The position numbers and the translations under genes were made by a program. The notes under the pieces are model-generated. The model had not been told where the DNA came from, ran no database searches, and saw nothing but the letters and a program-made list of their open reading frames with translations. Positions 7,101 to 50,208 of a stretch of 64,000 nucleotides of DNA are shown piece after piece; the first letter of the stretch is position 1, and each line of letters opens with the position of its first letter. Origin of the DNA: Mustelus asterias (Eukaryota); the NCBI RefSeq assembly GCF_964213995.1, contig NC_135825.1:11904001-11968000 (forward strand), in the 5' to 3' direction.

Positions 7101-8115
7101 AGGCTGCTGTGCTTCCACTGAAAGTGGAGGGAGTGGTCCATTGTACTGCAGGGTTACACGCCTCAGGTGGACCATAAAGTCTAGTCCCAGGAGCATCGGA
7201 GCGCAAAGGTGCGGTAACGCAAGGAGCCTGAAGTTCTCGTAAACTGTGCCCCGCACCGTTAGGTTGACCACGCAGCTCCCTAGCACGGTAACAGACCGGG
7301 ACCTCGACGCCATCGAAATTGTCTGTCTGACAGTCCGTACTCGGAGACCGCACCGTTTCACGGTGTCAGGGTGAATGAAGCTCTCCGTGCTCCCGCTGTC
7401 AAACAAACAATGAATTTGGCGTCCATTTACCTCTATGCCCATCATGGACTTGTCGAGTCTGTGAGGCTTGGCCTGGTCCAGGATGATTGACGCCACCATT
7501 GGGTCTTGGGTGCCACTGCAGGCAGCTGAGATGGTTGATGATGATGACCCCTGCTGGTCGTCCGCAGTCGGTGCCGACCAAAATGGCTGCGCCCATGGAT
7601 CGCACGTGGTCGGTGGCGCTAAAAGTGGCGGCCCCTGCAGGTCGCACATGTCTTGCATCTCCGTCGTCAGGAATGGCGGCGCTCTGGAATCGCACATGGT
7701 GGAAGACCTCGAAGACGCTGGAGACAAGGAGGCAGGCTCAGGAGAATCACACGCCGCACTGCTATGTTTGGAGAGTGATTTGGTCCTGCAGACTTTGGCA
7801 TAATGCCCTTTCTTTCCACACGCGGAGCACAATAGCGTTCTAGCTGGACATCGCTGCCGAGGGTGTTTCGCCAATCCACAGAAGTAACACCGTGGGCCTC
7901 CTGGAGCTGCCGCCGTCGTCAGGTCCGAGGTTGGAAACACAATCGTGCAGTTTTTCGGAGCCTCTGGGTAGAGTTGAGTCGGTGGCTGTACTTGCCACGA
8001 TGTTCCCACGTGGTCGGTGGGGTACGTTTCTAGACTTCTGGAGACTGTCTCCATAGCGTCGGCCAATTCTACTGTCTTAGCGAGGTCTAGATTACCTTGC
8101 TCTAGCAGCCGTGGT
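4184..8115 (-). mobile_element. Ty3/Gypsy LTR retrotransposon, 5'-truncated (gag Zn-knuckles, PR, RT, RNase H, IN, PPT, 3' LTR 4184-4490)
   Basis: CCHC knuckles, LFDSGS protease, RT, RNase H (SDASD), IN (HPE..CQVC, DFKG, HSDRG, E); PPT at ~4491-4505; one nonsense codon at 6591-6593; lies in gene A intron 1. Confidence 0.95.
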
Positions 8116-10270: not shown

Positions 10271-10508
10271 TATGTCATGAAAGCTCAGTAATCCAGATGA
10301 TGAAATCTGGCCCGTAAGATCTTGAACTTCTGTTAGTCACCTCTAACAAAAGAACTACACCAGCTTGCATTGAAAGAATATAAAATTCTGAACAATAAAA
10401 CAATGTTAAAAAGTTAGAACAGATGGACAATAATGAACAAGCTAATTATTTCCAATGAATTAGGAGGCAAGTTAGAGCCACCCCCCTCCTATTGAGATTG
10501 AATCTCTG

Positions 10509-11458
10509 GTGATGCTAGTGTACCTTCAAGAAATGTTTTTTTTCAATCGTGTTCCCTGCAGTTGTAAGCAGGCCTTTAGGTTTCATTGTTGATGGGCTGT
10601 CTGCGAGAAGTCCTTTTATTGCTGCTGCGATGGCTTATTTTTACTCTGGGCCTTGGGTACTTTCTGGGATTTGTTTTATGGCCCTGCAGTGTTAGGAGGA
10701 AGACTGATTGGCAGGTCATGTGTTTTGGACAGTTTTTTTTCCTAGTGAATTCAAAGGTTAAAGTCAAAGTTTATTTATGAGTCAGAAGGAGGCTTACATT
10801 AACACTGCAATGAAGTTACTTTGAAATTCCCCTAGTCGCCACATTCATTTTCAGTTTGGCTGCTGACTGCAGCTTTAGTTTAGAAGGGAGTGGACATCAC
10901 ACTGAAAAGCAGTGCTTCTCTCTCTCACCCTGGTATTGGAAATTCTGCTGGCTAGCTGGAAGCAAGGTTTCTTGCCTTCCTGGAGTGAAAGTTCTGCTGT
11001 TGGTGTTTTTGTTGGCGAGTATCTAGAGTCTCCCTCTCTCCCTGGTGTTTTGGGAAGCTGTTCTAACTTCAAGCTTGTTGTGTGTGTGTCTCAAGTGAAC
11101 TGCAGCATCCAACCAAAGGACGAAATTCCAACATCATGTGAGCATTTGTATTTTTAAACCTGTGGCAAGGTCTTTGTAAAGGGAAGTTTGATTGGAACAT
11201 TTCATACATTTATTAAGGATTATACAATATCATGGTTGTCTTTTTTTCTTGTTTGTAATTGGTAAAAGTTATTGGTAATTTTCTTTTTATACATGTTAAC
11301 TGTATTCTTAAATGAACTTTGTTTGATTAAAGTGGTTCAGTTGACTCATACCAGAAGTGAAGAATCTCATGCTCACCCTAGCCAGATTCAAATTGCAAAA
11401 CTTATGATGCAGGCAGACTCCATAACACACTTTGGAGTTTCTGACTTGAATTATAACA
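10509..11458 (+). mobile_element. Solo LTR (same family as 58904-59677) with a SINE tail fragment inserted at ~10765-10845
   Basis: Ends ...gaattataaCA; both ends match the reverse complement of the 58904-59677 element; absent from the paralogous promoter at ~50.5 kb. Confidence 0.7.
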
Positions 11459-11918
11459 GTCTGCTGACGTTACCTGGAGACTGACCCAGCAACAACCTGA
11501 TGTGTTCTGTGCTGGGAAATGTGTCTGGTACCCCAAATAAACTCCACTGGAACATGTGGACGCTTTTGGGAATTCAAAGCCCTTACCTCTGTCTAGAACC
11601 TACACCCTCTGCTGCCATAACAACAGAGAATCAGGAGTAGAGTTTGGAATGCCTCTCTGGAGCCTGTACTTGTTTCTTGATCCTGATTTATTGGAATCAT
11701 TGATCTCTCTGTTGCTCCTCCCTCATTCTACTCTATCTCAAAACGAGTCTGTTGGTGTCTTTCATTACCCCAGTTCCGAGAAGGGTCTGAGAAGCTTAAA
11801 TTTGTGTTTTATTCTCCTTGAACCTGTCCCTTTTCTGTGGCTGTGCTCAGATCATGTTGTGTCGAATATTGATTCAAAGGTACTTGGATTGGAGGATCTG
11901 TTCTAACGTCTTTGTTAT

Positions 11919-11998
11919 TCAGGGGTTTGAACAGTTGTTTGAGTGAGATTGAATGTTCTGTATCAGATAATTTGCAGTAAATTTGGAAATATCCAGGT
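11919..11998 (-). CDS. Candidate alternative terminal exon of gene B: (D)LDISKFTANYLIQNIQSHSNNCSNP*
   Basis: Pyrimidine tract plus cag acceptor, phase 1; AATAAA at 11808-11813; needs the 10-nt micro-exon at 13325-13334. Confidence 0.3.
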
Positions 11999-13324
11999 CT
12001 GATGTGCAGAAAGAGGATAACAATGATTAAATCTGAGTGACGGTTTAAGCTGCTTCTCCATTTTCACCAACAGTCACATATTTCACCGGCTGATGGGGAG
12101 TTGTTTCCAAATCGTTTCTTGAGTCCTGTCCAGTTCTAGGTGAGGAACACACGGGGACTCTGTTAAAGTGAATGTGCCAGAGACTGAAGTGGTGCTCAGT
12201 GTGAGAACATTCTAGCAGCAGATCCTGGGGGAGTCACTGGGAGACAGCATCATTCTGGGTCTGGTCATCAATCCCCAGCTTTAGTTTGTGTCAACCTGTG
12301 TCAAAATGATTCGTTGTGTCGACCCCCTAAAACATTCTCAGCCACCCTCAGGTTGTAATCCCCTGATCTCGGGCACTGACAAATCATTGTGCAAGTGTTG
12401 AGCCGAAGATTCACATCTCTCCTTCAGACAGAGTGCTGAGGATGTTGATTAGATTCACAGCTTGAAGCAGCTAATTCGGTTTTTGTTAACAACTCGATGA
12501 ACTTTTGGGGTTAAAAGGATCAAGGGATGTGGGGGAAGGGAGGGATCAGGATATTGAATTTGATGATCAGCCATGATCAAAATGAATGGCAGAGCAGGCT
12601 TGAAGGGCCGAATGGCCTCCTCCTGCTTCTAGTTTCTATGTTACATCTGACCAAATAGTTCAAGTTCCGTAAAGTGTGAAAATGTCTGTGTCTGTGTCAA
12701 AAACCACATTCTGGTGGTTGTGAACTGAGCTGTTTTTTAAATGTCTGTTCCTCTGACACGAACAATGACAAGGCAAGGTCCTGCTGTGGAATTCCTCCCC
12801 CACTGGGATGTTGATCCTATTTGATCTGGAATGGTTCAGTGATCCACCCACAATCTGTAGATCAGCCTGACCCAGGGGTTTACCTTCCCAGGAATTGTGC
12901 TCGGTGGGCGGGCGCTGGGTTAATGATGGTGACATGAGCTCTCAAAATTCCACCCTCACCTTCCTCTACAATGGAGGTCTCAGCTGAATATTACCGTCGC
13001 TGTCTGTGCCAGCTTCATGCTGCCTATTGGGTCCAGTTACCCTTACAACAGATGGCACAGCCCTCTATCTGCCTCCTGTTGACAGTTGCTGCCAGGAGGG
13101 GGTTACGACGGGTGGAATTTTCCCTTCTGGAGTCGAAGGCTGGAAGTTTCTGGCATTATCAAGGTGGGAATCATCGGCGGAGATTCAAAGGTCAAGGCTA
13201 ATGCCAAGGGAACTAAATATAAACTTCCGTGTTTTCTATCTACATATCACACATCAGAACATCGGTCCAGTCAGGTTTTTTTAATTGTGTTTTTGTGAAT
13301 GTGAGCTGAGAATGATGTCCTCAC

Positions 13325-13334
13325 CTTTGGAAAC
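13325..13334 (-). CDS. Candidate 10-nt cytoplasmic micro-exon GTTTCCAAAG (VSK)
   Basis: ttgttttctcag acceptor and AG|GTGAGG donor; phase 0 to 1 fits between the TM exon and the 11998 exon. Confidence 0.3.
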
Positions 13335-14338
13335 CTGAGAAAACAATGAGAAGCAAACAGCTTTGTTCCCTATTTCTGAATGTTATTTAGCCATGTGCAA
13401 GCTTTTGGGAAGCTTCTGTAACATCCTGAGTGTAACAGTTCATGAACAATTTCATTGAGTCCTGAGAAAACTGCCACCCAATTCCAGAAAGGTCCATCAA
13501 TGTTCCCGAGCTGCAGGAACTACAGCCTCATTTCCCAGCACAGTTTAACTGATGACGGTTTCAGGATTTTTGGGAATCGATGGAGATCAATCCATCCATT
13601 TTCACTCAGCTTTGGCCTTTCCTTTTGTTTATGATTCAGAAGACTTCATCCAGCTCAGTAGCGCCTCCCTCTGGGGTAAGTGACTCATGGTGCGATTCCT
13701 ATGAAGCCTGTACACCTGTTCACTGTTTCTCCATCTGTATCACATGGACCATGATGTTTGCCTATAACAAGCCCTGTAACAATGCAAATCCCCTTCTCCC
13801 AATCGCAAACACAACCCTTCATTTAGTACCTAACACCTATTGTACATTCACACGTTTCTGTCACACATCAGCCTTGAGAGCAGCAACACATTTTTCTCGG
13901 GGTTAAACCACCATGAGGTGCAACAAGCTTGAAAACATTTTTTTCAGAGTTCAGCTGTTGGTCGTCAAACATCAACTTATTTGAGGAGAGAATGCATTGT
14001 GGTTAAACTGAGTTTCTGTTCATTTAGGATGGAACATTCACTCGCAGCATTCTATATCAAACAAAACCTTTTCAACTATTGAAACCAAGAAGAAAATCAG
14101 GTCTCGAACAGCAATCTGTTACATATGGAGAAAGGAATTGAATTCTCTGTTACAATACAGTGAGGGGTGGGGTGGTGCTGTGGGGATGTGGGGAAGTTGC
14201 TGCCGTAAAGAGAGAGGAATGCTGGGAATTCAACCCCAGATACATCAACCCCCACACAGATAGACATCAAGGCAAGAGCTCCTGTATAAGCCCCATTCAC
14301 ACTGTGCTATCAGTAATAGTCTGAGTCTTGGGTTTAGT

Positions 14339-14474
14339 CATGATGTGGAGATGCCGGCGTTGGACTGGGGTAAGCACAGTAAGAAGCCTCACAACACCAG
14401 GTTAAAGTCCAACAGGTTTATTTGGTAGCAAATACCATAAGCTTTCGGAGCTTGCTGCTCCTTCGTCAGATGGA
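14339..14474 (-). mobile_element. Penelope-like element terminal fragment
   Basis: Same pseudo-LTR sequence as 18.6, 50.0 and 50.8 kb. Confidence 0.8.
14435..14473 (-). ncRNA. Minimal type I hammerhead ribozyme motif
   Basis: CCAU-CUGACGA-A-GGAGC[AGCAA]GCUCC-GAAA-GC-UU-AUGG. Confidence 0.75.
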
Positions 14475-17349
14475 TCAATTGATGGTTAATTGATGGTCAC
14501 AGAGACCACTCCATCTGCGCACTGAGAGTCTGAGGGAGAGAGAGGCCAAATTCACTCCTGAACCTGTCAGACCCCATTACACATTCAATATCCCAATAAA
14601 GTATCGGTCCCTCCCTGAATCCGAGTACAATTGGTAACAGATGCTAAGGTTCCAGGTGGATTCAGTTGAAAAGTATTGTTGCCAACTCAGCAACTGGGAA
14701 TCTCTATTGGATTCTGATATGTTGAGTAGAATTACCAGTTAATTGACAGCCTCCATTTAAATCCAGCAATGACCATTTCAAAACCAGATCCTGCCAGTCC
14801 AGGGGCAGTTTGATCTTAAAATGGTCTGGCTTGGTTTTTCCCCTCTGGGTAGGGTTGCATAAAGAAGCAATAATTTGCATTCATATAGCAATTTTAACCG
14901 AGTAAAACTGGCAGAAACATTTTGGATGAGCTTAATTTGATGCAGGGTGGAAGGTGCAAGGCACAGGATGGTATTGGAACAGTCGAGTGTGGAGGTACCT
15001 ACAGTGCAGATGAGGACTCTGTTGGACAGGGAGGTAGAACAAGTCTGTTTTTTTCCTTATTCAAACCAGTGTGTCTCCTATTCTGCTGTTATAAATGTTA
15101 CATTGTCCCATCCCTGGCAAATGTGGAACATATCATTGGAGCGATTGGTTTCCTATGAATGAAAAATTCATGTTGCCTGTTCCTGACAGAATTAGTTAGT
15201 CTTTAAATTGACACAGATTAAGAGGAGAATATGAACTAAGAAGTGTAGACATTTAATCAGCAAACAGATCAGTTATTGTCCAGATGTAGATATACAACTT
15301 GAAAGTCCCAGCCATTGTTTAGGTTTTTGATTCCTCCACTAATTTACTGGCCAAAATAATTTAATAACATAAAACACGTTATTATGTCGACTTGTTAAAA
15401 AAAATGTTCAAAGTCGGATGAATCATGAATTTTTGACCAGGATGCAAAATGGATCTCAGTTCACAGAGAGAAGGCTCTGGGTGAAAGGAAACTATGATTG
15501 AGTAACTGGGAGGAGGACTCAATTCCAAATTGAGGATACAACTACTCAACGTCCTGTGACATGGGGCCGTGTATTTCCCATGACATAGTTGGCGATGAGT
15601 GATCCTGGTGAATGACACATTGTTTAAACATTGACCTGAATTTTACGCTCTGGAAGTGGGTGTGTGGTGGTCCAGATCATCCCAGAAATGGCACGCGGTT
15701 ACATTTGGAGGGCAACACCATCGCGTCATCTCTCAATGTTTTGTTCAGCTGGCACTTGCAGAATTTGGAAAAGTATTGTCACAATTAAAGGGGTGCGGAG
15801 CCAATGTTGAGGACACCCAGGGCAACTCCCTCCCGCTGTGCCGCTGCCGCCTCTGCTGGGTCTGCCCGCTGGTGAGACGGGCATACCCAGGGGTGGTGAC
15901 GGCGATCATAGGGACTTACATTTGTGAGTGCGATATGTCGGTGGTTCCCCATTGCTGGCAGTTGGGTTGGAGGCAGCTGGCTGACTCTGATGCCCTGTAG
16001 ACCTCAATTACCTTTGGAGCCTTTCTCTGGCCGGTGGAGTCTGTGCAAGCCCCAACTGGGTGGGAGATTCCACTGCCACAGCTGGGCACTGCTCAGTAAC
16101 AGTGTTCCAATTAGACATGACAGGCACTGGCAACAGGTTGGAGGAGATGCTGCCATCATCCACATCACCCTGAGAGGAGATTGCAGGTGTGAACTACAGA
16201 CAGCCCATCCACCAACATGAGATTGATTTGAACTCCCCAAACCACCATCAACTGATGGGCAGCTAACAGAGTTACTTGGTGCCTCATTCATTAGTTACAA
16301 TCTGCCAGTGCCATGAACTAAATCCAGAAGGGAAACTTGGCAAGCTACCACAACTATTTTCTTTTTGCCTTTTATCACAAGAAGATACATGCACGGAAGA
16401 TAGAAGCCAGAAATTCCAGTAGCTTCTAAATTCCAATAGCTTCACACGCTATTTTCCCAGCTCACCGTGCTGATCGGCAGGTGTGGCAAGGTATTTAAAT
16501 GGCGCTCTTGTGAGGCCAAAGATAACGGCTGCTCTGTTCACAATGTTCAATTGTAATTTTGGATCATCCAGGACTGGCTGTTGGACGAGAAGCTGGAACG
16601 ACTGTCCCACAGCACAGAGACAGTGGGGGAGACAAGAGAGGTGGAGCTCAGACAGGGGGCCAGGCTTCGTGCTTGAAACCGGGCTTGTAGACATTAGGAA
16701 ACAGGGAAACTTTATCAAGTGTAGATTGCATTTGCTAACATAAAGGTAAAATCATAACATAATGAAGTTAAGGTAAAATCAGCTTTCCGAAGTAAAGGGA
16801 AATACATTCTTATTTAACAGTTTGTCTCCAATTCTATTGCTATACACGCACATTGTCCCAACCTTATTCAATGTGGAACATATCATTGGAGCGACTGGTT
16901 TCGAGTAAATGAAAAGATCATGTTGCCTATTTCTTACAAGATGTGTTAGTCTTTAAATTGACACAGACTAAGATAAGAACATAAAATGAGAAGTCTAGAC
17001 ATTGGGCGAGTCTTTCTGGCTGCGCTCGCCCCAAAAGTGGAAAATCTCACCCAAGGCCAATGTATTTTTGCATGGTCCACCCCCACGACTCTTCCCATGG
17101 CAGGCGAGAAGGGAAAATTCAGCCCATTGAGTGAGCAAATAGAGCAATTACTGTCCAGATTTATATTTACAACTTTTAGGTCGCAGCCACTAAATATTTG
17201 GTCAAATTTGTTTAATGACAAAAAACTTCTTATTGTGTACATTGATTAAAAGAAATGTTCAAAGCTGGATAAATAATTAATATTTGACCAGGATGCAAAA
17301 TTCCACCAATGAGGATGTCAGCAGGGAATCTCCATTTTTCCATTTTGGT

Positions 17350-17379
17350 TCAACTTTGAGAATCGGGTTCATTGAGTGG
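17350..17379 (-). CDS. Gene B likely terminal coding exon: PLNEPDSQS*
   Basis: Strong acceptor ttttctttttcag, phase 0 matching the TM exon donor; gives a short tail without tyrosine motifs. Confidence 0.5.
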   Translation of the reverse strand, partial: PLNEPDSQS

Positions 17380-17948
17380 CTGAAAAAGAAAATCATCAGA
17401 TTCGTTGAGACTGGGAGAACAATGCATCAATTGACATTTCAGATTTGAACAGAATTCTGGAAGTGGCAGCAGATTGAGGCAAAGCTTGGGGCAGTTTTGA
17501 GATCACATTGATCACCCATTCCTGGGAAGAACTGTCATTTGTATCCCTCATGAAGACATGTAACATGACTTTCTCATGGGTAACTGATGTTTCCCTGTGG
17601 CTGTGATTAATTCTCTGCCAATAATAATGAAGACCTGTGCTCCAGAACTTGCCGCACCTCGAGGCAAGCTGTTCCAGTACAGCTACAACACTGGCATCTA
17701 CCCGGCAATGTGGAAAATTGCTCAGGTAGGTCTCCATAAAAAGGAGGACAAATCCAACCTGGCCAATTATTGCCCCATCAGTCTAATCTCAATAATCAGT
17801 AAAGTGATGGAAGAAGTTATCAACAGCGCCAGCAAGAGGCATTTGCTCAGCAATAACCTGCTCTTGGATACTCAGTTTGGGTTCAGCCAGGGTCACTCAG
17901 TTCCTGACTCCATTACAGCCTTGGTTAAAACATGGACAAGAGCTGAAT

Positions 17949-18705
17949 ACTCTTGCAACTCGGCCAACATTGTCTACCTGATACGCTGCAGGAAAGGATG
18001 TCCTGAGGCACGGTACATTGGGGAAACCATGCAGACGCTACGACAACGGATGAATGAACACCGCTCGACAATCACCAGGCAAGACTGTTCTCTTCCTGTG
18101 GGGGACCACTTCAGCAGTCACGGGCATTCAGCCTCGGATCTTCAGGTAAGCGTTCTCCAAGGCGGCCTTCACTACACACGACAGCGCAGAGTCGCTGAGC
18201 AGAAACTGATAGCCAAGTTCCGCACACATGAGGACGGCCTAAACCGGGATGTTGGATTTATGTCACAGTATCAGTAACCCCCACAGCTTGCCTCCTGGGC
18301 TTGCAGAATCTCACTAGCTGTTCTGTCTGGAGACAATACACATCTCTTTACCCTGTGTTTAATGTTCACTCCACCCACATTGTCTGTACCTTTAAGACCT
18401 GGCTGGCTGTAGGATCGTAAGAAGTCTCACAACACCAGGTTAAAGTCCAACAGGTTTATTTTGGACTTTAACCTGGTGTTGTGAGACTTCTTACTGTGCT
18501 TACCCCAGTCCAACGCCGGCATCTCCACATCATGGCTGTAGGATTCGCATTCTAATCAGTATTCTGCAACTTGATTTTGTCTGTTTGCACTGTTTGAGAG
18601 CACATTTCCACTCCATCTGATGAAGGAGCAGCGCTCTGAAAGCTTATGGTATTTGCTACCAAATAAACCTGTTGGACTTTACCCTGGTGTTGTGAGACTT
18701 CTTAC
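17949..18705 (+). mobile_element. 5'-truncated Penelope-like element (GIY-YIG endonuclease C-terminus plus pseudo-LTR) with a nested mini-copy at 18416-18532
   Basis: NIVYLIRC..YIGET..RMNEH..GLN; 12-bp TSD; nested insert flanked by tggctgtaggat repeats. Confidence 0.9.
18613..18649 (+). ncRNA. Minimal type I hammerhead ribozyme motif
   Basis: CCAU-CUGAUGA-A-GGAGC[AGC]GCUCU-GAAA-GC-UU-AUGG. Confidence 0.7.
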
Positions 18706-19404
18706 CAAGAGCTGAATGCCAGAGGTGAGGTGAGAGTGACTGCCCTTGAAGTCAAGGCAGCAATTGACCGAGTGTGGCATCAAGGAGCCTGAACAAAACC
18801 AGAGTGAATGGGACTCGGGGGAAAGCCCTCCACTGGTTGGAGTGATACCTGGCATAAAGGAAGGTGGTTGTTGTGGTTGGAGGTCAGCCATCTTAGCTCC
18901 AGGACATCACTACACGAGTTACGGAGGATTCTTGGCCCAATCATCTGCAGCTGCTTCAGCAATGACCTTCCTTCCAACATAAAGTCAGATGCTGGGATGT
19001 TTGCTGTTGACTGCACAATGTTCAGTACGATTTGCGACTCTTCAGATACTGAAGCCATCAACGTCCAATTGCAGCAAGATATGGACAATAGCCAGGCTTG
19101 GGCTGACAAGTAGCAAGTAGCATTTGTGCCACTTGGCTGGGGAAAGTACTAGGCAATGCTGGGAGCAATGTTGGGAGTTGGGGGCGGGGGTGGAGGTGGT
19201 ACTGCATGGTGTTTGAGGTGGGGCGGTGTGGGGGGATGCAGGCATACCTGGGGAGTGAGGTTCCATCTTAACATTCATAAATCTAGCCAGGCTTTAAAAA
19301 TAGCATTTCAATCTTTAGAAAACTATGTTGCTGTCAGGGTGAGCTCAATCACAGCCTGTCCTGCCGGAGTGACACCGTGGGACTCATTCCGAGCAATACG
19401 GTAG

Positions 19405-19640
19405 AACAAAGAGCAGTACAGCACAGGAACAGGCCCACCAAGTCTGTGCCGCCACAGATGCCTCTCTAATCTAATATTATCTTGCCTCTCCGTGGTCCAT
19501 ATCCCTCTATTCCCTGCCTTTTCATGTATGTATCCAGATGCCTCTTGAATGATGTTATAGAATCTGCTTCCACCACCTCCTCTGGCCGTGCATTCACCGC
19601 CCTTTGTGTGAAAAACCTCCCCCTTACATCTCCTTTAAAA
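19405..19640 (-). mobile_element. CR1 LINE 3' end fragment
   Basis: Tail acagcacaggaacaggccc shared with other CR1 3' ends in the window. Confidence 0.7.
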
Positions 19641-19787
19641 AGCCACCATTGGTGCCGATGGCTTTGTTTATCCCTGTGGACATTGATTTCAATGCAACCT
19701 TTTCTTTACAATATCTGCGGTCAATGTTTTTAAAAATAATTGATGGAAAACTTGCAGAATGATTGTTGTAAAGTCCATAATCCTCAC

Positions 19788-19887
19788 CTGAGATTTTCTC
19801 GTGTACCATGTGACCGAAATAACACAAATCACCAGGAGGGTAAAGAGCCCCCAGCGAATCACATTCCAGATGAAGGAACAGAGCAAA
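19788..19887 (-). CDS. Gene B transmembrane exon: (C)LLCSFIWNVIRWGLFTLLVICVISVTWYTRKSQ
   Basis: Acceptor tatttcttccag, donor CAG|GTGAGG; 100 nt, phase 2 to 0; hydrophobic helix followed by basic stop-transfer RK; phase 2 matches the donor at 22111. Confidence 0.85.
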
Positions 19888-22111
19888 CTGGAAGAAATAC
19901 AGAATGATTTGAAGGGAATGAGGCAGCTTCGTGTTTGAAACATTAATCTCCTCTTTACACTGTGACCTATTGTAGCAGCATCGCACAGACAAGGCACGTT
20001 AGCTGGAGCAATCAACTAAAGTTTCACTGATCAACTTCATGATCATTAGATACAGATCAAATGGAGCTGGTTTCATTAACTTTCCTCAGTATATCTGGAA
20101 TGCTGAGTAAAATCTTAGAAGTAAGAATGTTATGAATTGACTGGTCATTGGGACAGAAACATTGTCTGGTGCAACATAACATTGGTGAGATATCTGTTCA
20201 GTGAGTAAGAAACTTCCAATAACATCATCCCACACTGTTCCAAAGTAGAATCATATTCCACTCAATATTAACTCTGCTCCTCTCTCCACAGATGCTGCCG
20301 GACCTGCTGAGATATTCCAGCACTTTCTGTTTTTATCATCCCACAATTCCCTGGTGCACAGGAAATTCGGAACCAGCCCGAAGCAGACGGCCTTTAACCC
20401 TCTCAGTTTGGGAACAATGTATTAAACTGGGCAACTCAGAAGGAGAAGATGACAGTGAATGCAATGTTCCTGTCAGCGATACTCCAGAACACACCGGGTT
20501 AAGGGAATCTGGCATCGCTGGAGTGTGACAAACACAACTCCATGAGATTGGGTTCACGGTGAAGTGATTAACATGAATAATGAAAACTGCACCATCTAAG
20601 GTGTGGCAAACAGAGAAAGCTCACTTCTGAGTCTGAACTTCCACTAACAGAAGCAGCAACTTTGTTAGGAAGCTAACACAATAGCATTATGTAAACACAG
20701 CTGCCGGGTGGGATGGTGAACCCGGGTTGGGGGACCACAGGAATGCTGTTGGGGATTCAATATCTGGCAAAACCTGGAAGGCGCAGGCGACTTAATCAGA
20801 TTCACGGCCATAGTGGGCGAGAACCTGATTTACATACATTTTAATATATTTCCATATCATTAAAGACCCCCCCCCTGCTGATATTGAGCCCTCGCTGTGT
20901 TTTCAAACCGGGGCAACGTGACATCACGTTGGCGCATTGTACAGCAGGTTCACCCAGATGTGATGGGGAACCCCCTTCCTGGGCAAGAGGGATATGGTCA
21001 GGCAGTGGCCTGGCAATGCCCTCTGGCACTCTCCCTTGGTGCAGGTTGGCACTACCAAGTTGGCACCATGCCACCCCAACATTGCCAACCTGGCAGTGCC
21101 AACTTGTACCAGTGGCAGTTCCGGGCTGGACCTCAGTGGGAGTCTGATGGGGGAGGGGTTATTCATTTACAAGTGAGGGTGGGCCGGAGCGGACAGGGGA
21201 GCTGGAGTAGCCGTTTGTGGGAAGGGGCTGGGTTTGTCGGCAATGGCTGTGTGGGTGGAGGGTTGGAGGGAAGGGCTCCAATGTTCGGGGGGGAAGGGGG
21301 GTGGTGCCAGCACTGACTGCTGGAGGGGGGGGAAGGGTCTGATATTCAGGGGAGGGGATTGGTGTCAGCACTGACTGCTGAGGGGTGATGTGGGGGGAGA
21401 ATTGCTGGCTCATAATAAGAGGACTCTGATCGGGGTGTGGTGGGATTTGGGGGGAGCCCCTGAGAGCTCTGTGGTGGGGTGGGGGGGGAGGTTACATTTT
21501 GCTTTGATTGGGCCGCCATGTTTGTGTACTGTCAGCTCAGTGCAGCCAGGATTTGCGTATTGAGGCCCCGCCCCCTACATGACGATGTGAAGCACGCCCA
21601 GCTGTTTTTTTAGTGACAGAGTGTGGTAAGTTCTGGAGAGAAAGCCAACCTGCTTCGAGCCAGAACCAACAGTTTTCAGTCAGATTTCCCTAATATTGTG
21701 TTTTATGTTTACGGGGACTGTTTACAGATTCAGCTTTATTCTGGAGGCAGTCGGTGTGTCTGTAAAACATTTAGCTCAGATGCTGGGAGAGCAGGATAAT
21801 GGCTCATTTTAGCCATGTAGGGGGAAAGCTAAGCAAAAAACGACAGTGTTGTTTCCGGCAAGAAAAATGACAGGTGTCTCTCCAGAGAAACAGATTAGTT
21901 TTCTGTGCAGATCTTTGACTGAGAGAGGAAACCGGAGCACACGGAGGAAACTCACATAGGTTCAAAGAACGTGCAGACTCCAGGCAGACAGTCACCCAAG
22001 GCCAGAATTGAACTTGGGTCCCTGGTGTTGCGAGGCAGCACTGCTAACCACAGTGCCTCTGTGTCACCTGTTGTCATAGCACTGTTACCTCAAAATCCTG
22101 GAATTTCTTAC

Positions 22112-22460
22112 CACTCGCTTTCCGTCCTTGCCACATCAACACTGTTGATCTGTGTCACACAACTGCAATTCTCCCGTGATCTGTGGATCACTGACACTGT
22201 AACCGTTTCACTGGACTTTTCTCCCTGGTGATTTGAGGCTGTGCAGTAATATTGATGATGTTGCTGTGTGAAGGATTGACAATGTAGATCCAGTTTATTG
22301 GTGTCAGAGATCTTTGAATCTTCAGGCGGGGTCTTTTCATACCATGTGTACTGAATGGGAAGTGATCCCTGGACAGACTCACAGGAGACGGACACTGAGC
22401 CCCCAGAACATGAGGCATTTGGTGGTGATAGAAATCTAAGTTCAGGAACAGACACGGGTT
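22112..22460 (-). CDS. Gene B Ig domain 6 (C2, membrane-proximal)
   Basis: Acceptor ttcctttctacag, donor TG|GTAAGA; 349 nt, phase 1 to 2. Confidence 0.85.
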
Positions 22461-23248
22461 CTGTAGAAAGGAACAATCATTGAGATACAGATTGAATAAC
22501 CAAAAAATTAAATACTTTCATGTCACCAATATTTCTACATCTCATCCAGAGTATGAGGAGGAAGGGAGAGTGTTAGCGAGAGAGAGAGAGAGAGCTGGCA
22601 GTGGGAACTTGGCCGATTGCGAGTAGTATCTATTGATTGCTGTCTGGGATTTAATTGTGAGTACTGTTTAACACTATAACTGCAAGTACTGATTGAAGTC
22701 TAAATCTCATCCAAAGGGCATGAGCTGGGAGATAGAAGCTATCCGCTGGCAGCAACTGGAATAGTTAATTGGGGAAACTGGCCTTTTTGTACCGAGTCCC
22801 TTTGTTTATGAACATATAAATTCAGACATTCTCAGTGCAACCAGAACTGGAGTCTGCCTTCAACCGAGTGTGGAGGTTTAATGAGCTGAAGGAATTTACT
22901 ACAGGGGAAGAAGTGAGCTGTTGGTGAGTATCTGGTGAGTATCCGGGAAGTGGTCAAGGTCGATTGTCCAAGCATCGGGAGCAAGGGTGGGGTCCTTGCC
23001 AACTTGTTAACCAGGAGAGCAGGTTCCAAGGTGCAATAAATCTGACGCCATCTCTCTGGATCATTACTCTGGGCCTCTGAATTACAATTCCTCCAACATG
23101 ATCATTGTTCTAACTGCCCTCTCGCTGCCAGACTCTGCACTGCTGCGGAACCTCAGGATATCGGAGCTGTCAATGTCTCCTCCCAGATAAAGCACTGATC
23201 AGACATTTCAGTCGAGAGTAATAAAGATAATCACTGAGAACTATGTAC

Positions 23249-23557
23249 CGTCAGATATTTGTAGCTTGACAGGAAATATTGAAAGGAGGCCGGGCTTATC
23301 AATACCACAGCTGTACCATCCTGCATCTCCTGAGCGAAGATCCTCCATAGTAACAACAAATAATCCTGGTGTCTTGTTATCTGTGATCGACATTCTCCCT
23401 CGCCGTCCATCTGGATCGTCTGATTTTACCAAACCAGAGCACTGACGACTCCAAGATTTCACATGTGACTGGGACAATTTGTCATAGTGACAATCTATAG
23501 TGATCGATCTTCCCAAAACTCCTGTTACTTTATTTTTTGCCCACAATACACTTGGAG
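23249..23557 (-). CDS. Gene B Ig domain 5 (V, lacks the first C-C' cysteine)
   Basis: Acceptor gtcttttcag, donor G|GTACAT; 309 nt, phase 1-1; open frame. Confidence 0.88.
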
Positions 23558-24643
23558 CTGAAAAGACAACAGGTCAAAAACTGAAGTGAAAATAATTGCT
23601 TAATACAAACAGATATATTTCAATAGGATTTACCACTGTGTTCAGAGAAATCTCTCCAGTACATCTTCCAATGCAATTGGATACTTCCTTGTCTGAGATG
23701 TTAGAAACATTAATATAATGGCTGGAATTTTCCAGAAAGAGGCAAGTCGTCAGGTTAGGACTGAAAATTGATGAGTTTCTCTCCAGAAAGACAGCCAGCT
23801 TTTCCCACCAGACCTCCTGACTTTGTCAAAAAAATCAGGGGGAGTGGTTTGTGCTGTCACTTTGTCAGGACGGGGCCTGATTGAGCTGGCAAGGCCGTCT
23901 CCATAGAGATTGGGCACCATTTTTAAAGTTGATATTAAAGTTCCGTTGAAGAACCCTCCCCCCGCACCCCAATGCCCACAGACACCAGGAACCTCAGTGG
24001 ACAAGGAGAAAACCCCTCACCTAGAGGGTAAATCTCCCCTCAACGTCCCACCACTCAAAGATCAGTGTTCTTCAACTACACCATGCAAACATTAGGGTAA
24101 CCCTACACCAGCCTCTCTCCGCCAGCATCATGGCATTCCCACTCCCACCCTCTCAGCAACGACGACCAACCACCCCACCATTCACAGTCTCCACCCCAAT
24201 GCATACACGGCCTCCCCACCCCCTCACAGCCCACAGGCATCAGGCCCCACCCCATGGACATCAGGACCCCCAGTAGACAAGGGGAACAGTATTCCAAAAC
24301 ATATCTGAGGAATTCTCCCCAGTCCTGGGGAAAGCTTATCTCTCAAACAGCAATTGTCAGACAGCAGATTGTCTGCTCATGATCACATTGCTCCTTGAGG
24401 GAGCTTATTGCTCACAAATTGGTGCTGAGCTTCCTACATCACAACAATGGCTCTGAATCAGTTCCAGCATTGACCAGAACGGACTTTAAAACTGTCCTGA
24501 AGTTGTGAAAAGTGCAAAATAAATGCAATTCTATTTTTATTCCAATTGCTTAAAACGAAGGAATGAACTAAACCCGTGAGCAATTCGGACTGACATTAAT
24601 TTAAAAATTAGTTGTAGTTTTTGAAGCTTAAAGTGATATTTAC

Positions 24644-24967
24644 CAATGCTGCTGATTTGTGTTAAATAACTGCAGTCATTCTCTGAAATGTGGATCACTG
24701 ACACCGTAACCATTTCACTGGATTTTTCTCCCTGGTGATTTGAGGCTGTGCAGTAATATTGATGATGTTGCTGTGTGAAGGATTGACAATGTAGATCCAG
24801 TTTATTGGTGTCAGAGATCTTTGAATCTTCAGACGGGGCCTTTTCATACCATGTGTACTGAATGGGAAGTGATCCCTGGACAGACTCACAGGAGACGGAC
24901 ACTGAGCCCCCAGAACATGAGGCATTTGGTGGTGATAGAAATCTAAGTTCAGGAACAGACACGGGTT
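24644..24967 (-). CDS. Gene B Ig domain 4 (C2)
   Basis: Acceptor ttcctttctacag, donor G|GTAAAT; 324 nt, phase 1-1. Confidence 0.88.
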
Positions 24968-25755
24968 CTGTAGAAAGGAACAATCATTTAGATACAGATT
25001 GAATAACCAAAAAATTAAATATTTTCATGTTACCAATATATCATCCAGAGTATGAGGAGGAAGGGAGAGTGTTAGAGAGAGAGAGAGAGAGCTGGCAGTG
25101 GGAACTTGGCCGATTGCGGGTAGTATCTATTGATTGCTGTCTGGGATTTAATTGTGAGTACTGTTTAACACTTTAACTGCAAGTACTGATTGAAGTCTAA
25201 ATCTCATCCAAAGGGCATGAGCTGGGAGATAGAAGCTTTCCGCTGGCAGCAACTGGAATAGTTAATTGGACAAACTGGCTTGAACTGGTCTTTTTGTACC
25301 GAGTCCCTTTGTTTTTGAACATATAAATTCAGACATTCTCAGTGCAACCAGCACTGGAGTCTGCCTTCAACCGAGTGTGGAGGTTTAATGAGCTGAAGGA
25401 ATTTACTGCAGGGGAAGAAGTGAGCTGTTGGTGAGTATCTGGTGAGTATCCGGGAAGTGGTCAAGGTCTATTTTCCAGCCATCGGGAGCATGGGTGGGGT
25501 CCTTGCCAACTTGTTAACCAGGAGAATGGGGTCCAAGGTGCAATAAATCTGACCCCATCTCTCTGGATCATTACTCTGGGCCTCTGAATTACAATTCCTC
25601 CAACATAATCATTGTGCTAACTGCCCTCTCGCTGCAAGACTCTGCACTGCTGCGGAGCCTCGGGATATCGGAGCTGTCAATGTCTCCTCCCTGATAAAGC
25701 ACCGATCAGACATTTCAGTCGAGAGGAATAAAAATAATCACTGAGAACAATGTAC

Positions 25756-26064
25756 CGTCAGATATTTGTAGCTTTACAGGAAATATTGAAAGGGAGCCGT
25801 GCTGATCAATACCACAGCTGTACCATCCTGCATCTCCTGTGCGAAGATCCTCCATAGTAACAACAAATAATCCTTGTGTCTTGTTATCTGTGATCGAAAT
25901 TCTCCCTCGCCGTCCATCTGGATCGTCTGATTTTACCAAAACAGAGCACTGACGACTCCAATATTTCACATGTGACTGGGACAATTTGTCATAGTGACAA
26001 TCTATAGTGATCGATCTTCCCAAAACTCCTGTTACTTTATTTTGTGCCCACAATGCACTTGGAG
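25756..26064 (-). CDS. Gene B Ig domain 3 (V, lacks the first C-C' cysteine)
   Basis: Acceptor gtcttttcag, donor G|GTACAT; 309 nt, phase 1-1. Confidence 0.88.
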
Positions 26065-26535
26065 CTGAAAAGACAACAGGTCAAAAACTGAACTGAAAAT
26101 AATTGCTTAATACAAACAGATATATTTCAATAGGAATTTTCACTGTGTTCGGAGAAATCTCCCCAATACATCTTCTAATGCAATTGAATACCTCCTTGTT
26201 TGAGATGTTGGGAACATTAATATAATGAGTGGACTTTTCCAGAAAAATTTCAAATTGTCAGGTTGGGACTGAAAACCGGTGACTTTCCAGAAAGACAGCC
26301 AGGTTTTCCCACCAGATCCCCTGACATTTTCCCCAAAAAATCAGGGGGCGTGGTTTGTGCTGTCGCTTTGGCAGGACGGGGCCTGATTGAGCTGGCAAGG
26401 CCGTCTCCATAGAGATTGGGCACCATTTTTAAAGTTGATATTAAAGTTCCGTTGAAGAACCCTCCCCCTGCACCCCAATGCCCACAGACATCAGGAACCT
26501 CAGTGGACAAGGAGAAAACCCCTCACCTAGAGGGT

Positions 26536-26775
26536 TGATGCATTATCAATACCCAGAGACGGAATCTGGAATAATAGGCTTTTATTAACAATAAAAGGGA
26601 ACTAACTCTACAGGAAACTCTAACCGAGGGACCGGACCAGAATGAGGCGAAGGGGAGGAGCAGCCACCTTTATACCCCAGTGAACAGGGGAGGAGCCTCA
26701 GGCAGCACCGGTAGGGGTGTGTCCAGTCATCAGAACATAACAGTGGTTATCAGAACATAACAGTGGTTTACCACA
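26536..26775 (-). mobile_element. Gypsy solo LTR, 240 bp
   Basis: Plus-strand termini tgatg...accaca as in the LTRs at 4184 and 30652; 5-bp TSD agggt; empty site in the duplicate at ~24025. Confidence 0.9.
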
Positions 26776-27393
26776 AGGGTCAATCTCCCCTCAACGTCCC
26801 ACCACTCAAAGATCAGTGTTCTTCACCTCCACCATGCAAGCATTAGGGTAACCCTACACCAGCCTCTCTCTGCCAGCATCATGGCATTCCCACTCCCACC
26901 CTCTCAGCAACGACGATCAACCCCCCCACCATTCACAGTCTCCACCCCAATGCATACACGACCTCCCCACCCCCTCACAGCCCACAGGCATCAGGCCCCA
27001 CCCCGTGGACATCGGGACCCACAGTTGACAAGGGAACAGTATTCCAAAAAATATCTGAGGAATTCTCCCCAGTCCTGGGGAAAGCTTATCTCTCAAACAG
27101 CAATTGTCAGACAGCAGATTGTCTGCTCAGGGTCACATTGCTCTTTGAGGGAGCTTATTGCTCAAAGATTGGTGCTGAGCTTCCTACATCACAACAATGG
27201 CTCTGAATCAGTTCCAGCATTGACCAGAACTGACTGTAAAACTGTCCTTAAGTTGTGAAAAGTGCAAAATAAATGCAATTCTATTTTTATTAAAATTGCT
27301 TAGAACGACACAATGAACTAAACCCGTGAGCAATTCAGACAGACATTAATTAAAAAATTAGTTGTAGTTTTTGAAGCTTAAAGTGATATTTAC

Positions 27394-27717
27394 CAATGTT
27401 GCTGATTTGTGTTAAGTAACTGCAGTCATTCTCTGAAATGTGGATCACTGACACTGTAACCATTTCACTGTATTTTTCTCCCTGGTGATTTGAGGCTGTG
27501 CAGTAATATTGATGATGTTGCTGTGTGAAGGATTGACAATGTAGATCCAGTTTATTGGTGTCAGAGATCTTTGAAACTTCAGATGGGGTCTTTTCATACC
27601 ATGTGCACTGAAATGGAAGTGATCCCTGGACAGACTCACAGGAGACGGACACTGAGCCCCCAGAACATGAGGCATTTGGTGGTGATAGAAATCTAAGTTC
27701 AGGAACAGACACAGGTT
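27394..27717 (-). CDS. Gene B Ig domain 2 (C2)
   Basis: Acceptor ttcttccccacag, donor G|GTAAAT; 324 nt, phase 1-1. Confidence 0.88.
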
Positions 27718-29065
27718 CTGTGGGGAAGAAACAAACATTCAGAAACTTGAGTGAACATCTAAGAATCAAACACTCTGTGATTTTCACCCGTTCAGCATCT
27801 CAGCCAGGGGCGGCCATGTTGGAATCTCACCAGCACATCCACGTCTCCATGGGGTCGAATGCTTAACCAGGGTTTGTATGTGGGAAGTGTGTTTGTGTTG
27901 TCCAGAAAGTTAGAAACACCAGGAAAGTTAAAGTTAAAGTTAAAAGTTAAAGCTTATTTATTAGTCACAAGTAAGGCTTATATTAACACTGCAATGAAGT
28001 TATTGTGAAATTCCCCGAGTCACCACAGTCCAGTGCCTGTTCGGGTCAATGCACCTAATCAGCGCGTCTTCACAAAAGTAAAATTTGTGCTGAATTTAAC
28101 AGCAAAATCTGATCAGAACTCTTCCAGAATTGAGAGTCTGGCTGGAGTTTGAGCAGAAAAGTCTGTCGTGTAAGATTTGAAATTGGTGGGGGTGTGAGCT
28201 CGGGGGACAGTCGCGAGGAGGGAATCAGGGAGGCTTTATTGCTCGTTAGCCAATCATGGGGAGGGACAGATTGTACAACGTATTTCCCCGGGGGCTGGGG
28301 TGAAGCACTCCTGTGCCTCCAGGTCCACAATCCGTCCTGGAAAAGCTGCTGGATCCAATCGATCCCACCGCCCTTCAACCTGATGCAGGATGGAGGAGGG
28401 GAGTTAAAATTCCCATTTGGCCAAAAGGAGTAGCCAAAAGTGACCGTTTTCACCAACATTTTAAATGAGGGCTGGTGAGTCTTCATTGCTGCCAGGGCCA
28501 CGAACTGTACTCTGAATCAAACAGGCCAAAGTTCGCCTGGTGACCGAAGAGTGTATTTTTGAAATGTTGCTGGCTGTGAGCTTGCCTCACACACACTCAC
28601 TCACACACCCAGACACACTGTAAAATTAACACTTGATCCAGAACATGGAGCAACGATTTGGCCATTCAGTCCCTCGAGACTGTTCCACACTTCAATTAAA
28701 TCACAAGTGACCTATATCATATACCAAAAGAGAAAATGCTGGAAAATCTCAGCAGGTCTGGCCGCATCTGCAAGGAGAGAAAAGAGCTGACGTTTCGAGT
28801 CCCGATGACCCTTTGTCAAAGCCTGTATCTTGTCTGTATCTTGACCTGTCTCTTATCCCTGTTTACCCACTTTGGCGACTGAAGCAAATCTGTCAATCTC
28901 AGTTTTAACATTTTCAATATATCTCAACAATACTTTTGGGGAAGGAGTTCCAAATTTTCACCACATTTGCGCAAAGACGGTATTTGTCTGTCTGATGGGA
29001 TCTTCATCATTCCATAATTGGACTGTTCAGTGCCTTCCATTGTGCATCAGCGGACACTTGTCATG

Positions 29066-33600: not shown

Positions 33601-34240
33601 GGAGAATTGGTGCGCAAAGATGCGGCAACACAAGGAGCCTGAATCGCTCGTAAATTGTGCCCTGCACTTTCAGAGTTACCACACAACGTCCTTGAACAGG
33701 GACAGACCAGGACCGTGATGCCATAGAGATTGTCTGTTTGGCAGGTTGAACCTGGAGTCCACACCTCTTTACAGTGTCAGGGTGAATAAAGCTCTCAGTG
33801 CTCCCGCTGTCAAACAGACAATAAATTGCACGACCATTTACCTTTATGTCCATCATTGAACAGTCAAGCCTGTGGTGCTTAGCCTGGTTCAGGGTGATCG
33901 ACGCCACCGTTGGCCCTTGAACGTCACTGCAGGCAGCTGAGGTCGATGCTGAGGACCCCTGCTGGTCGCTCCTGGTCGTCGTCGACCAAAATGGCCGCCC
34001 CCATGAATCGCACATGGTTGAGGGCGCCAAGCGTAGCGACTCCTTGTGGTCATCCTCCTCCGACTCCGTCGACCACAATGGCGTTGTCCTGGACTCGCAC
34101 GTGGACGAACCCCGTGGGTACTTCGACGTCGATGGTGATGATCCACGTTCTGAAGGGTCACAGGCTGCACTGCCGTTCTTGGGCTTTGATCTGCACACCT
34201 TTGCGTAGTGCCCCTTTTTACCGCATTGATTACAGACCAC
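30652..34240 (-). mobile_element. Second Ty3/Gypsy element of the same clade, 5'-truncated and frameshifted; 3' LTR 30652-30914
   Basis: PR-RT-RH-IN highly similar to the 4.5-8 kb copy; PPT next to the LTR; deletion of the RT active-site motif near 32960. Confidence 0.95.
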
Positions 34241-38451: not shown

Positions 38452-38763
38452 CGTTAGATATTTGTAGGTTTACGTTATACATTGGATCGAGAACGGATGT
38501 TTCAATTCCACAGCTGTACCATCCTGCATCTCCTGAGCGAAGATCCTTCATAGTGACAACAAATACTCCACGTGACTTGTTATCTGTGATTGATATTCTT
38601 CCATTTTGCTGATTTGTTGTTGCTACAACATCACATTGGCGAGTCGAGCCGCGACACCAATATTTCACGTGTGACCAGTACCACACACCATAGTGACAAT
38701 TGATTGTGATCGCTCTCCCCACAATTCCTCTCGCTTCCTTTTTTGCCCACAATGCACCTGAAA
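38452..38763 (-). CDS. Gene B Ig domain 1 (CD300/pIgR-like V)
   Basis: Same splice sites as 2917-3228; 312 nt, phase 1-1; four-cysteine V domain. Confidence 0.92.
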
Positions 38764-49204: not shown

Positions 49205-49241
49205 CAGGCAGAGAGCAAATGAGGAGAATCAAAATCCACAT
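49205..49241 (-). CDS. Gene B leader exon, proximal copy (MWILILLICSLP)
   Basis: 37 nt, G|GTGAGT donor; nearly identical to 10110-10146. Confidence 0.82.
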
Positions 49242-50171: not shown

Positions 50172-50208
50172 CGGGCAGAGAGCAAATGAGGAGAATCAAA
50201 ATCCACAT
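50172..50208 (-). CDS. Gene B leader exon, distal copy (MWILILLICSLP)
   Basis: 37 nt, intact ATG and G|GTGAGT donor. Confidence 0.7.

What the first reader, a model, noticed from the sequence alone, without database searches (positions are those of the whole stretch)
19788..19887. N-x-x-R transmembrane motif (WNVIRW) on a CD300/pIgR-like receptor
Seen: the TM begins N-V-I-R-W-G-L-F with no mid-helix Lys. Known: Arg in an NxxR context at the outer TM end is the FcR-gamma-pairing signature of LRC receptors (FCAR/CD89, GPVI, LILRA, OSCAR, NKp46), whereas activating CD300/TREM members mostly use a central Lys for DAP12. Inference: a CD300-type ectodomain is wired to an LRC-type adaptor interface, relevant to the ancestry of both systems.
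Basis: partly seen in the sequence, partly recalled or inferred. Interest (0 to 1): 0.78.

Follow-up and report, generated by a model that had tools for sequence, protein, structure and literature searches.

The report
Shark paired immune receptor membrane arginine
This is the membrane-spanning exon of a shark immune receptor from a known family, whose conserved arginine probably recruits an activating signalling partner, although the asparagine that made it look like a mammalian LRC motif varies across its relatives.

Summary
The exon is real: 19887-19788 (minus strand) encodes a transmembrane helix with W-N-V-I-R-W and no lysine inside it. It belongs to a shark MDIR gene (CD300/pIgR-type V and C2 repeats; skate MDIR5 and MDIR3 are hits). 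The arginine is invariant in this helix type (49 of 49 with the position left free) and goes with short ITIM-less tails (34 of 36), while uncharged helices carry ITIM tails (52 of 55): a paired activating/inhibitory family. The asparagine is not conserved (6 of 52; Lys 19, Asp 12, Ser 10), so the family motif is WxxxRW, not NxxR. No LRC-type protein was hit by a profile of the helix, and other hallmarks of the LRC helix are missing. Best reading: arginine-based coupling to a zeta/FcR-gamma-type ITAM dimer, inferred, not shown. NxxR helices outside the LRC and FcR-gamma-coupled CD300 members are already published. This copy lacks the family's stalk exon; the 22112-19887 junction keeps the frame but has no transcript support here.

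The parts
49205..49241 (-). Leader exon, coding part (nearest of two identical-coding leader exons; the other is 50172-50208)
   Evidence: 100% match to the N-terminus of P0005, GT donor in phase 1
38452..38763 (-). V-set Ig exon 1, with the W-C...C extra cysteine pair typical of CD300/pIgR
   Evidence: Pfam V-set E 2.5e-9; splice sites
27394..27717 (-). C2-type Ig exon 1 (open frame; skipped in the public model P0005)
25756..26064 (-). V-set Ig exon 2
   Evidence: Pfam V-set E 7e-12; 96 of 103 identical to ITIM-bearing P0081
24644..24967 (-). C2-type Ig exon 2
   Evidence: Pfam Ig_3/Ig_2/Ig_C17orf99
23249..23557 (-). V-set Ig exon 3 (first Cys of the extra pair replaced by Ser)
   Evidence: pIgR and CD300 best among solved structures; 97 of 103 identical to P0081
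22112..22460 (-). C2-type Ig exon 3, membrane-proximal; the donor used by the three other C2 exons of the window is absent at 22137 and the frame runs 25 bases further to a GTAAGA donor in phase 2
   Evidence: 71 of 105 identical to MDIR5, 75 of 105 to MDIR3
19788..19887 (-). Transmembrane exon of the Arg (WxxxRW, MDIR5-like) type; Arg codon 19856-19854, Asn codon 19865-19863
   Evidence: 31 of 33 identical to P0024, 15 of 27 to MDIR5
17350..17379 (-). Last exon: 9-residue tail and stop, no tyrosine motif; ATTAAA at 17216
   Evidence: 7 of 10 identical to the P0024 tail; phase 0 acceptor; six residues shorter than P0024
60773..63146 (-). Two cytoplasmic exons (63146-63094 and from 60907) of the upstream inhibitory paralog, with ITIMs IVYASV and VTYATL followed by a stop
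   Evidence: 93-94% identical to the tail of P0081
333..10146 (-). 5' part of the next family gene (leader 10146-10110, V 3228-2917, C2 650-333), running off the window

Best explanation
The exon is the activating-type membrane module of a shark MDIR (CD300/pIgR-related) paired receptor family. Genes in a tandem array share nearly identical V and C2 ectodomain exons but end in one of two modules: an uncharged helix with a long ITIM tail, or this W-x-x-x-R-W helix with a short tail and no signalling motif. The Arg sits about one turn below the outer membrane face, 19 residues above the cytoplasmic basic residue, and most likely pairs with the two aspartates of a zeta-family ITAM dimer (FcR-gamma if sharks have it, otherwise CD3-zeta). 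Shown: exon, family, Arg invariance, split of tails, shared ectodomains. Inferred: adaptor binding, its identity, activating function. The Asn three residues upstream is one of several polar states at a variable position.
For: MDIR5 (P0069) and MDIR3 (P0072) among 120 listed hits, all named from sharks, skates and rays. Arg in 49 of 49 distinct motifs found with that position free, and in 53 of 53 stretches scoring 20 bits or more against a profile with the column masked. Of the 120 hits, 36 end in an Arg helix (34 without ITIM, median tail 19), 55 in an uncharged helix (52 with ITIM, median tail 113), 29 had no terminal helix by my rule. No central Lys helix found in 146 proteins by pattern. 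V exon 3 is 94% identical to an ITIM-bearing paralog; an ITIM tail lies upstream in the same window. In a quick tree of 82 membrane-proximal C2 domains the two types intermix (21 label changes, at least 11 forced by well-supported branches). Arg near the top of the helix binds both aspartates of gamma or zeta dimers in CD89, TCR-alpha, and by assumption NKp30/NKp46 (PMC13107469 passages).
Against: No binding or signalling data. Charge rules mispredict in fish and CD300s: the Lys of catfish LITR 2.6b is dispensable for FcR-gamma binding (PMC4810170 passages), mouse LMIR8 has Lys yet uses FcR-gamma, human CD300C uses Glu, NKG2D uses Arg with DAP10. PMC4016189 reports no FcR-gamma chain in cartilaginous fish. 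Gene models are automatic and several are fusions of neighbours. This copy lacks the stalk exon and is skipped by its public model.
Confidence: 0.58

Rival explanations
1. The helix is a true homolog of the NxxR module of LRC, Xenopus FCRL and SLAM receptors, joined to a CD300/pIgR ectodomain before sharks and bony vertebrates split; the Asn later drifted in most shark and ray lineages.
For: Tyr or Phe lies 7 residues before the Arg in 44 of 52 motifs, the spacing of the Tyr of the DYT consensus described for LRC helices (motif in PMC6557307; the exact spacing is recalled). Asn occurs in scattered lineages: two Mustelus, Pristiophorus, Stegostoma, Mobula and Amblyraja proteins, and four of the other states (Lys, Asp, Ser, Thr) are one base change from an Asn codon (genetic code). 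The NxxR module has moved between ectodomain families before.
Against: Asn in only 6 of 52, whereas it is described as invariable in LRC helices. Invariant Trp at +1, Phe at +4 and near-invariant Trp at -4 are family-specific; no acidic residue at the C-terminal end; the tail is on a separate exon, whereas Xenopus NxxR helices share an exon with the tail. The profile hit no bony-vertebrate protein among 1.84 billion representatives (17 hits at E 0.001 or better: 15 family members, 2 low-complexity) or among 8000 scored candidates (47 hits, all elasmobranch). This copy has lost the Tyr.
Confidence: 0.17
2. The Arg has another role: an interface anchor between flanking tryptophans, a retention signal, a contact for hetero-oligomers with other family members, or coupling to DAP10/DAP12 rather than zeta/gamma.
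For: Arg is flanked by Trp at -4 and +1 in nearly all members, a layout that lets it reach lipid head groups (inference). Arg-DAP10 pairing exists. From memory, the 2006 MDIR paper listed MDIR5, which has this helix, as lacking signalling motifs (paper not readable here).
Against: Complete invariance across sharks and rays and near-complete segregation with ITIM-less tails fit an adaptor contact better than a passive anchor.
Confidence: 0.25
3. Whatever the family does, this particular copy is damaged: a deletion removed the normal donor and most or all of the stalk exon, so the helix exon may not be spliced and the gene may give a secreted or no product. (Independent of the family-level reading.)
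For: Donor absent at 22137 where three sister C2 exons have it; no [EKR][YF]xC stalk motif in any frame of 22111-19888 and no similarity of the following sequence to sister introns; 36 of 38 C2-to-Arg-helix segments in the family keep a third cysteine from that stalk. The public model P0005 matches the window's exons at 98-100% but skips this exon. Tail six residues shorter than P0024 and Tyr -7 lost. An orphan cytoplasmic exon between two leader exons shows deletions in this array.
Against: All nine exons join into an open frame of 697 codons; a strong GTAAGA donor lies 25 bases on, in the right phase. Those bases may be the end of the old stalk exon (7 mismatches to a back-translation of the P0024 stalk end; 146 of 14125 random stretches do as well, but 13% against the best of all stalks). 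The junction supplies a cysteine, and the distance from the last YYC to the Arg (57) equals the shortest in the family (57-128). Public models often fuse neighbours in this family.
Confidence: 0.35

Closest known systems
MDIR5 / modular domain immune-type receptors of clearnose skate (ABC86800.1; P0069)
   Same: V-C2 repeat ectodomain, same leader type, same WxxxRW helix type, short tail without ITIM; C2 68% and helix 56% identical
   Different: MDIR5 has Lys at -3 and keeps the E-Y-S-C stalk; two V-C2 units against three here
LRC receptors with NxxR helices (FCAR/CD89, GPVI, LILRA, OSCAR, NKp46) and Xenopus XFL TM1
   Same: Arg near the outer end of the helix, short tail, paired with ITIM forms; aromatic residue 7 before the Arg in most family members
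   Different: Asn variable; W...RW..F frame; no C-terminal acidic residue; tail on a separate exon; ectodomain V plus C17orf99-like C2, not LRC C2; no profile hit
Mammalian activating CD300 members (LMIR8/CLM-6, CD300C)
   Same: CD300-type V domain, short tail, paired with ITIM forms, FcR-gamma coupling already shown for these
   Different: Single V domain; charged residue is Lys or Glu, not an outer Arg
Polymeric immunoglobulin receptor
   Same: Best structural relatives of the V domains by sequence
   Different: pIgR has only V domains and a long sorting tail; no evidence here of immunoglobulin transport

Membership tests
MDIR | Modular ectodomain of CD300/pIgR-like V and C2 Ig domains | tested here: met
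   Three V and three C2 exons
MDIR | Sequence similarity to named skate MDIRs | tested here: met
   MDIR5 E 2e-68, MDIR3 E 4e-68 whole-protein scores; C2 68-71%, V 54-62% identical
MDIR | Multigene tandem array with activating-type and ITIM forms | tested here: met
   Three family genes and a relic in 64 kb, ITIM tail upstream
MDIR | Expressed, spliced transcript of this copy | tested here: inconclusive
NxxR (LRC/XFL TM1) helix | Arg near the N-terminal end of the helix | tested here: met
   49 of 49 and 53 of 53
NxxR (LRC/XFL TM1) helix | Invariable Asn three residues before the Arg | tested here: not met
   Present in this copy, but 6 of 52 across the family
NxxR (LRC/XFL TM1) helix | DYT consensus at the N-terminus | tested here: inconclusive
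   Family has Ser at -8 (41 of 52) and Tyr at -7 (33 of 52); this copy has Cys-Ser there
NxxR (LRC/XFL TM1) helix | Acidic residue(s) at the C-terminal end | tested here: not met
   Positions +15 to +19 are T-W-F/Y-T-R; an acidic residue in 1 of 51
NxxR (LRC/XFL TM1) helix | Helix and tail on one exon (as in Xenopus TM1 genes) | tested here: not met
   Phase 0 donor at 19787, tail exon 2.4 kb away; feature from PMC2413239
NxxR (LRC/XFL TM1) helix | Detectable sequence homology to LRC/XFL helices | tested here: inconclusive
   No such hit; a 50-position hydrophobic profile has little reach
NxxR (LRC/XFL TM1) helix | Association with FcR-gamma | not testable with these tools
DAP12-coupled CD300/TREM | Central Lys in the helix | tested here: not met
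   None in this exon; none found by pattern in 146 proteins

The most novel reading that the evidence does not exclude
The shark S-Y-x-x-W-N-V-I-R-W helix exon and the LRC/FCRL/SLAM NxxR helix descend from one Arg module that already coupled receptors to a zeta-family dimer in the ancestor of jawed vertebrates, first on a CD300/pIgR scaffold and, if sharks lack FcR-gamma, through CD3-zeta; Lys/DAP12 coupling of mammalian CD300 and TREM would then be a later replacement.
Probability: 0.17. Interest if true: 0.68.

Novelty: new member of a known kind. Interest (0 to 1): 0.33.

Why it matters
It gives a concrete, testable candidate for how activating innate receptors signal in cartilaginous fish: one invariant arginine shared by a large paired family across sharks and rays, in a lineage where the FcR-gamma chain has been reported missing. 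It does not by itself link the CD300 and LRC families. If the helix proved homologous to the NxxR module, it would push that module back to the base of jawed vertebrates.

Tried and rejected
No whole genome is held for this window, so paralog introns and stalk exons could not be compared as DNA. Transcript check: no RNA holder listed; 22 runs held a part, 18 of them guessed RNA at shares 0.04-0.17. Four were laid on 10500-24000 at 85% likeness; the output was dominated by repeats, 15 joints were shown and 355 were not, none shown was 22112-19887; one contig bridged the V and C2 exons and one covered the helix exon with its flanking introns. This is no evidence for or against expression. Solved structures: no match for the exon, one chance match of a bacterial PTS subunit at E 2.1 for the profile. 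Pfam: no family for the exon. The membrane region of a single-V relative found only 3 shark proteins among 5 candidates. ESM Atlas: helix region best score 0.81, a lead at chance level; the single-V relative falls with CD300/CMRF35 clusters. A 19-base pattern gave two chance matches in metagenomes. Earlier scan findings: nothing in three look-ups. An ITIM-like exon candidate at 12135-12045 had no match in family tails (best E 0.2) and is not included in the gene. Six alternative in-frame exon candidates in the intron 22111-19888 lack family similarity; one (21338-21171, Pro/Ser/Thr-rich) is not excluded. The ancestral residue at -3 was not determined. The original MDIR paper (PubMed 16738934) could not be read. 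No structure or complex prediction was run.

Full report
Observation. The interval 19887-19788 is a 100-base minus-strand exon with a pyrimidine-rich AG acceptor and a GTGAGG donor. It starts in phase 2 and ends in phase 0 and encodes 33 residues containing W-N-V-I-R-W-G-L-F, followed by a hydrophobic run closed by W-Y-T-R-K; there is no Lys in the helix. Of 241 N-x-x-R occurrences in six frames of the window it is the only one followed by a hydrophobic 15-mer.

The gene. Upstream lie a leader (49241-49205) and three V plus three C2 Ig exons between 38763 and 22112; downstream lies a 30-base last exon at 17379-17350 with no tyrosine. The V exon tested matches pIgR, then CD300 members, among solved structures; the C2 exons match Pfam Ig_3, Ig_2 and Ig_C17orf99. 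All nine exons join into 697 open codons with one terminal stop. A search with the last C2 exon gave 126 proteins among 239 candidates; the 120 listed are all named from sharks, skates and rays and include skate MDIR5 and MDIR3. One of them, P0005, labelled Mustelus asterias by its source, matches the window's exons at 98-100%. The gene is therefore an MDIR, a family described as activating/inhibitory multigene receptors similar to CD300, TREM, FCAR and pIgR (PMC3031540, passages).

Conservation of the motif. Among 146 proteins gathered, 65 Arg-type helices in 63 proteins gave 52 distinct motifs. To avoid selecting on the Arg I repeated the search with that position free (Arg in 49 of 49) and with a profile in which the column was masked (Arg in 53 of 53 stretches at 20 bits or more). 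Trp at -4 is found in 49 of 52; Trp +1 and Phe +4 were part of the pattern but are also invariant in the 17-row alignment. Position -3, the N of NxxR, is Lys 19, Asp 12, Ser 10, Asn 6, Thr 3, Gln 1, Glu 1. MDIR5 has Lys. The conserved motif is WxxxRW.

A paired family. Of the first 120 hits, 36 end in an Arg helix (34 without an ITIM, median tail 19 residues; the 2 exceptions have aberrant-looking ends), 55 end in an uncharged helix (52 with an ITIM, median tail 113) and 29 had no terminal helix by my rule, mostly truncated or run-on models. The second and third V exons of this gene are 93-94% identical to the ITIM-bearing P0081, and the window itself holds the ITIM tail of an upstream paralog at 63146-60773. 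A quick tree of 82 membrane-proximal C2 domains (79 different, 105 columns, careful search unfinished, labels set by pattern and so imperfect) groups them largely by lineage with both tail types mixed: 21 label changes, at least 11 forced by well-supported branches, against 27.6 for shuffled labels. That is the pattern of paired receptors whose ectodomains are exchanged or homogenised while two membrane modules persist.

Mechanism. An Arg near the top of the helix binds both aspartates of FcR-gamma in CD89 and of zeta in TCR-alpha, and is assumed to do so in NKp30 and NKp46; the role of the Asn of CD89 has not been tested directly (PMC13107469, passages). Here the Arg lies four residues inside the outer Trp and 19 before the cytoplasmic Arg. 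I infer coupling to a zeta-family ITAM dimer (0.58). This is not shown, and charge rules have exceptions: catfish LITR 2.6b (PMC4810170, passages), mouse LMIR8 (PMC5974347, passages), human CD300C (PMC12447643, passages), NKG2D-DAP10. A 2014 survey found no FcR-gamma chain in cartilaginous fish (PMC4016189, passages); it used early assemblies and also missed pIgR-like genes, and I could not check it, so CD3-zeta is an equal candidate.

Is it the LRC helix? PMC6557307 (passages and Discussion) defines that helix by the Arg, an invariable residue upstream of it (the N of NxxR; the text writes Asp at -2), a DYT consensus and C-terminal acidic residues, and notes its use by Xenopus FCRL and SLAM receptors; PMC2413239 (passages) shows FcR-gamma association and that helix and tail share an exon; PMC4536121 (one passage) counts 49-50 such exons in frogs. 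The shark module meets the Arg, fails the invariant Asn, the acidic end and the one-exon layout, and partly resembles DYT (Ser -8 in 41, Tyr -7 in 33 and Phe in 11 of 52). A profile of 17 helices found 47 proteins among 8000 scored candidates, all elasmobranch, and 17 among 1.84 billion representatives, 15 of them family members and 2 low-complexity sequences. Such a short profile has little reach, so homology is unsupported rather than excluded. In its favour, Asn occurs in scattered shark and ray lineages and is one base change from four of the other states; the ancestral state remains open. I put homology at 0.17.

State of this copy. The three other C2 exons of the window end at a phase 1 GT; here that donor is missing at 22137 and the frame continues 25 bases to a phase 2 GTAAGA donor at 22111. 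The stalk exon with an E-Y-x-C motif, whose cysteine is present in 36 of 38 distinct family segments, was not found between 22111 and 19888. The 25 bases may be the remnant end of that exon (p about 0.01 against the closest paralog, 0.13 against the best of all). The exon's acceptor lies three codons upstream of the usual family position, as in P0024; Tyr -7 is lost; the tail is six residues shorter than in P0024. The public model P0005 skips this exon and fuses the ectodomain to the next gene, a common fault in this family. The frame is intact and the shortened spacer equals the shortest in the family. Transcript data were uninformative. I put decay of this copy at 0.35.

Novelty. The family has been known since 2006 and a deposited member, MDIR5, carries the same helix type. 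From memory, the original paper reported a positively charged membrane residue in MDIR1 and no signalling motif in MDIR4 and MDIR5; I could not read it, so the Arg may already have been noted. Ten searches of the paper library listed no paper on adaptor coupling of shark MDIRs; the library lacks most subscription journals, and I saw no supplements. Papers seen only as listings are not used as evidence; the zebrafish NILT preprint (passages) added nothing on this helix. Verdict: a new member of a known family, with a real, family-wide Arg module worth a direct test, and an NxxR reading that is incidental on present evidence. Interest 0.33.

Noticed in passing
window 63146-63094 and 60907-60773 (-): Cytoplasmic exons of an upstream inhibitory paralog with two ITIMs; a stop follows directly on the second, where P0002 and P0084 continue.
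   Followed up: partly
window 49643-49591 (-), between leader exons 50208 and 49241: Orphan 53-base cytoplasmic exon of the ITIM type (15 of 17 identical to P0011), with no Ig or helix exon before it: a relic of a gene whose middle was deleted.
   Followed up: partly
window 26064-25756 and 23557-23249 (-): V domains of a subtype that has lost the first cysteine of the extra CD300/pIgR pair, leaving one unpaired; the same subtype recurs in P0001-P0003 and P0081.
   Followed up: no
window 22142-27746: Recent internal tandem duplication of the C2-V unit, 91-95% identical at DNA level including introns.
   Followed up: no
window 4461-7699 and 30885-34104: Two related Gypsy-type retrotransposon copies (80% alike) with long pol frames, one in an intron of each gene; LINE and hAT-like fragments elsewhere (types recalled from motifs, not searched).
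   Followed up: no
window 12135-12045 (-): Exon-like stretch with an ITIM consensus (VKYVTV) and a stop, 5 kb downstream of the tail exon; no match in family tails, probably chance.
   Followed up: partly
window 20827-20690 (-): Intronic stretch 93% identical to the C-terminus of public model P0001, which also lacks a helix; probably intron or repeat sequence drawn into that model.
   Followed up: no
proteins P0130, P0131, P0146, P0138: Conserved single-V shark CD300-like proteins with the same WxxxRW helix, three of them with almost no tail; simplest members for an adaptor test.
   Followed up: partly
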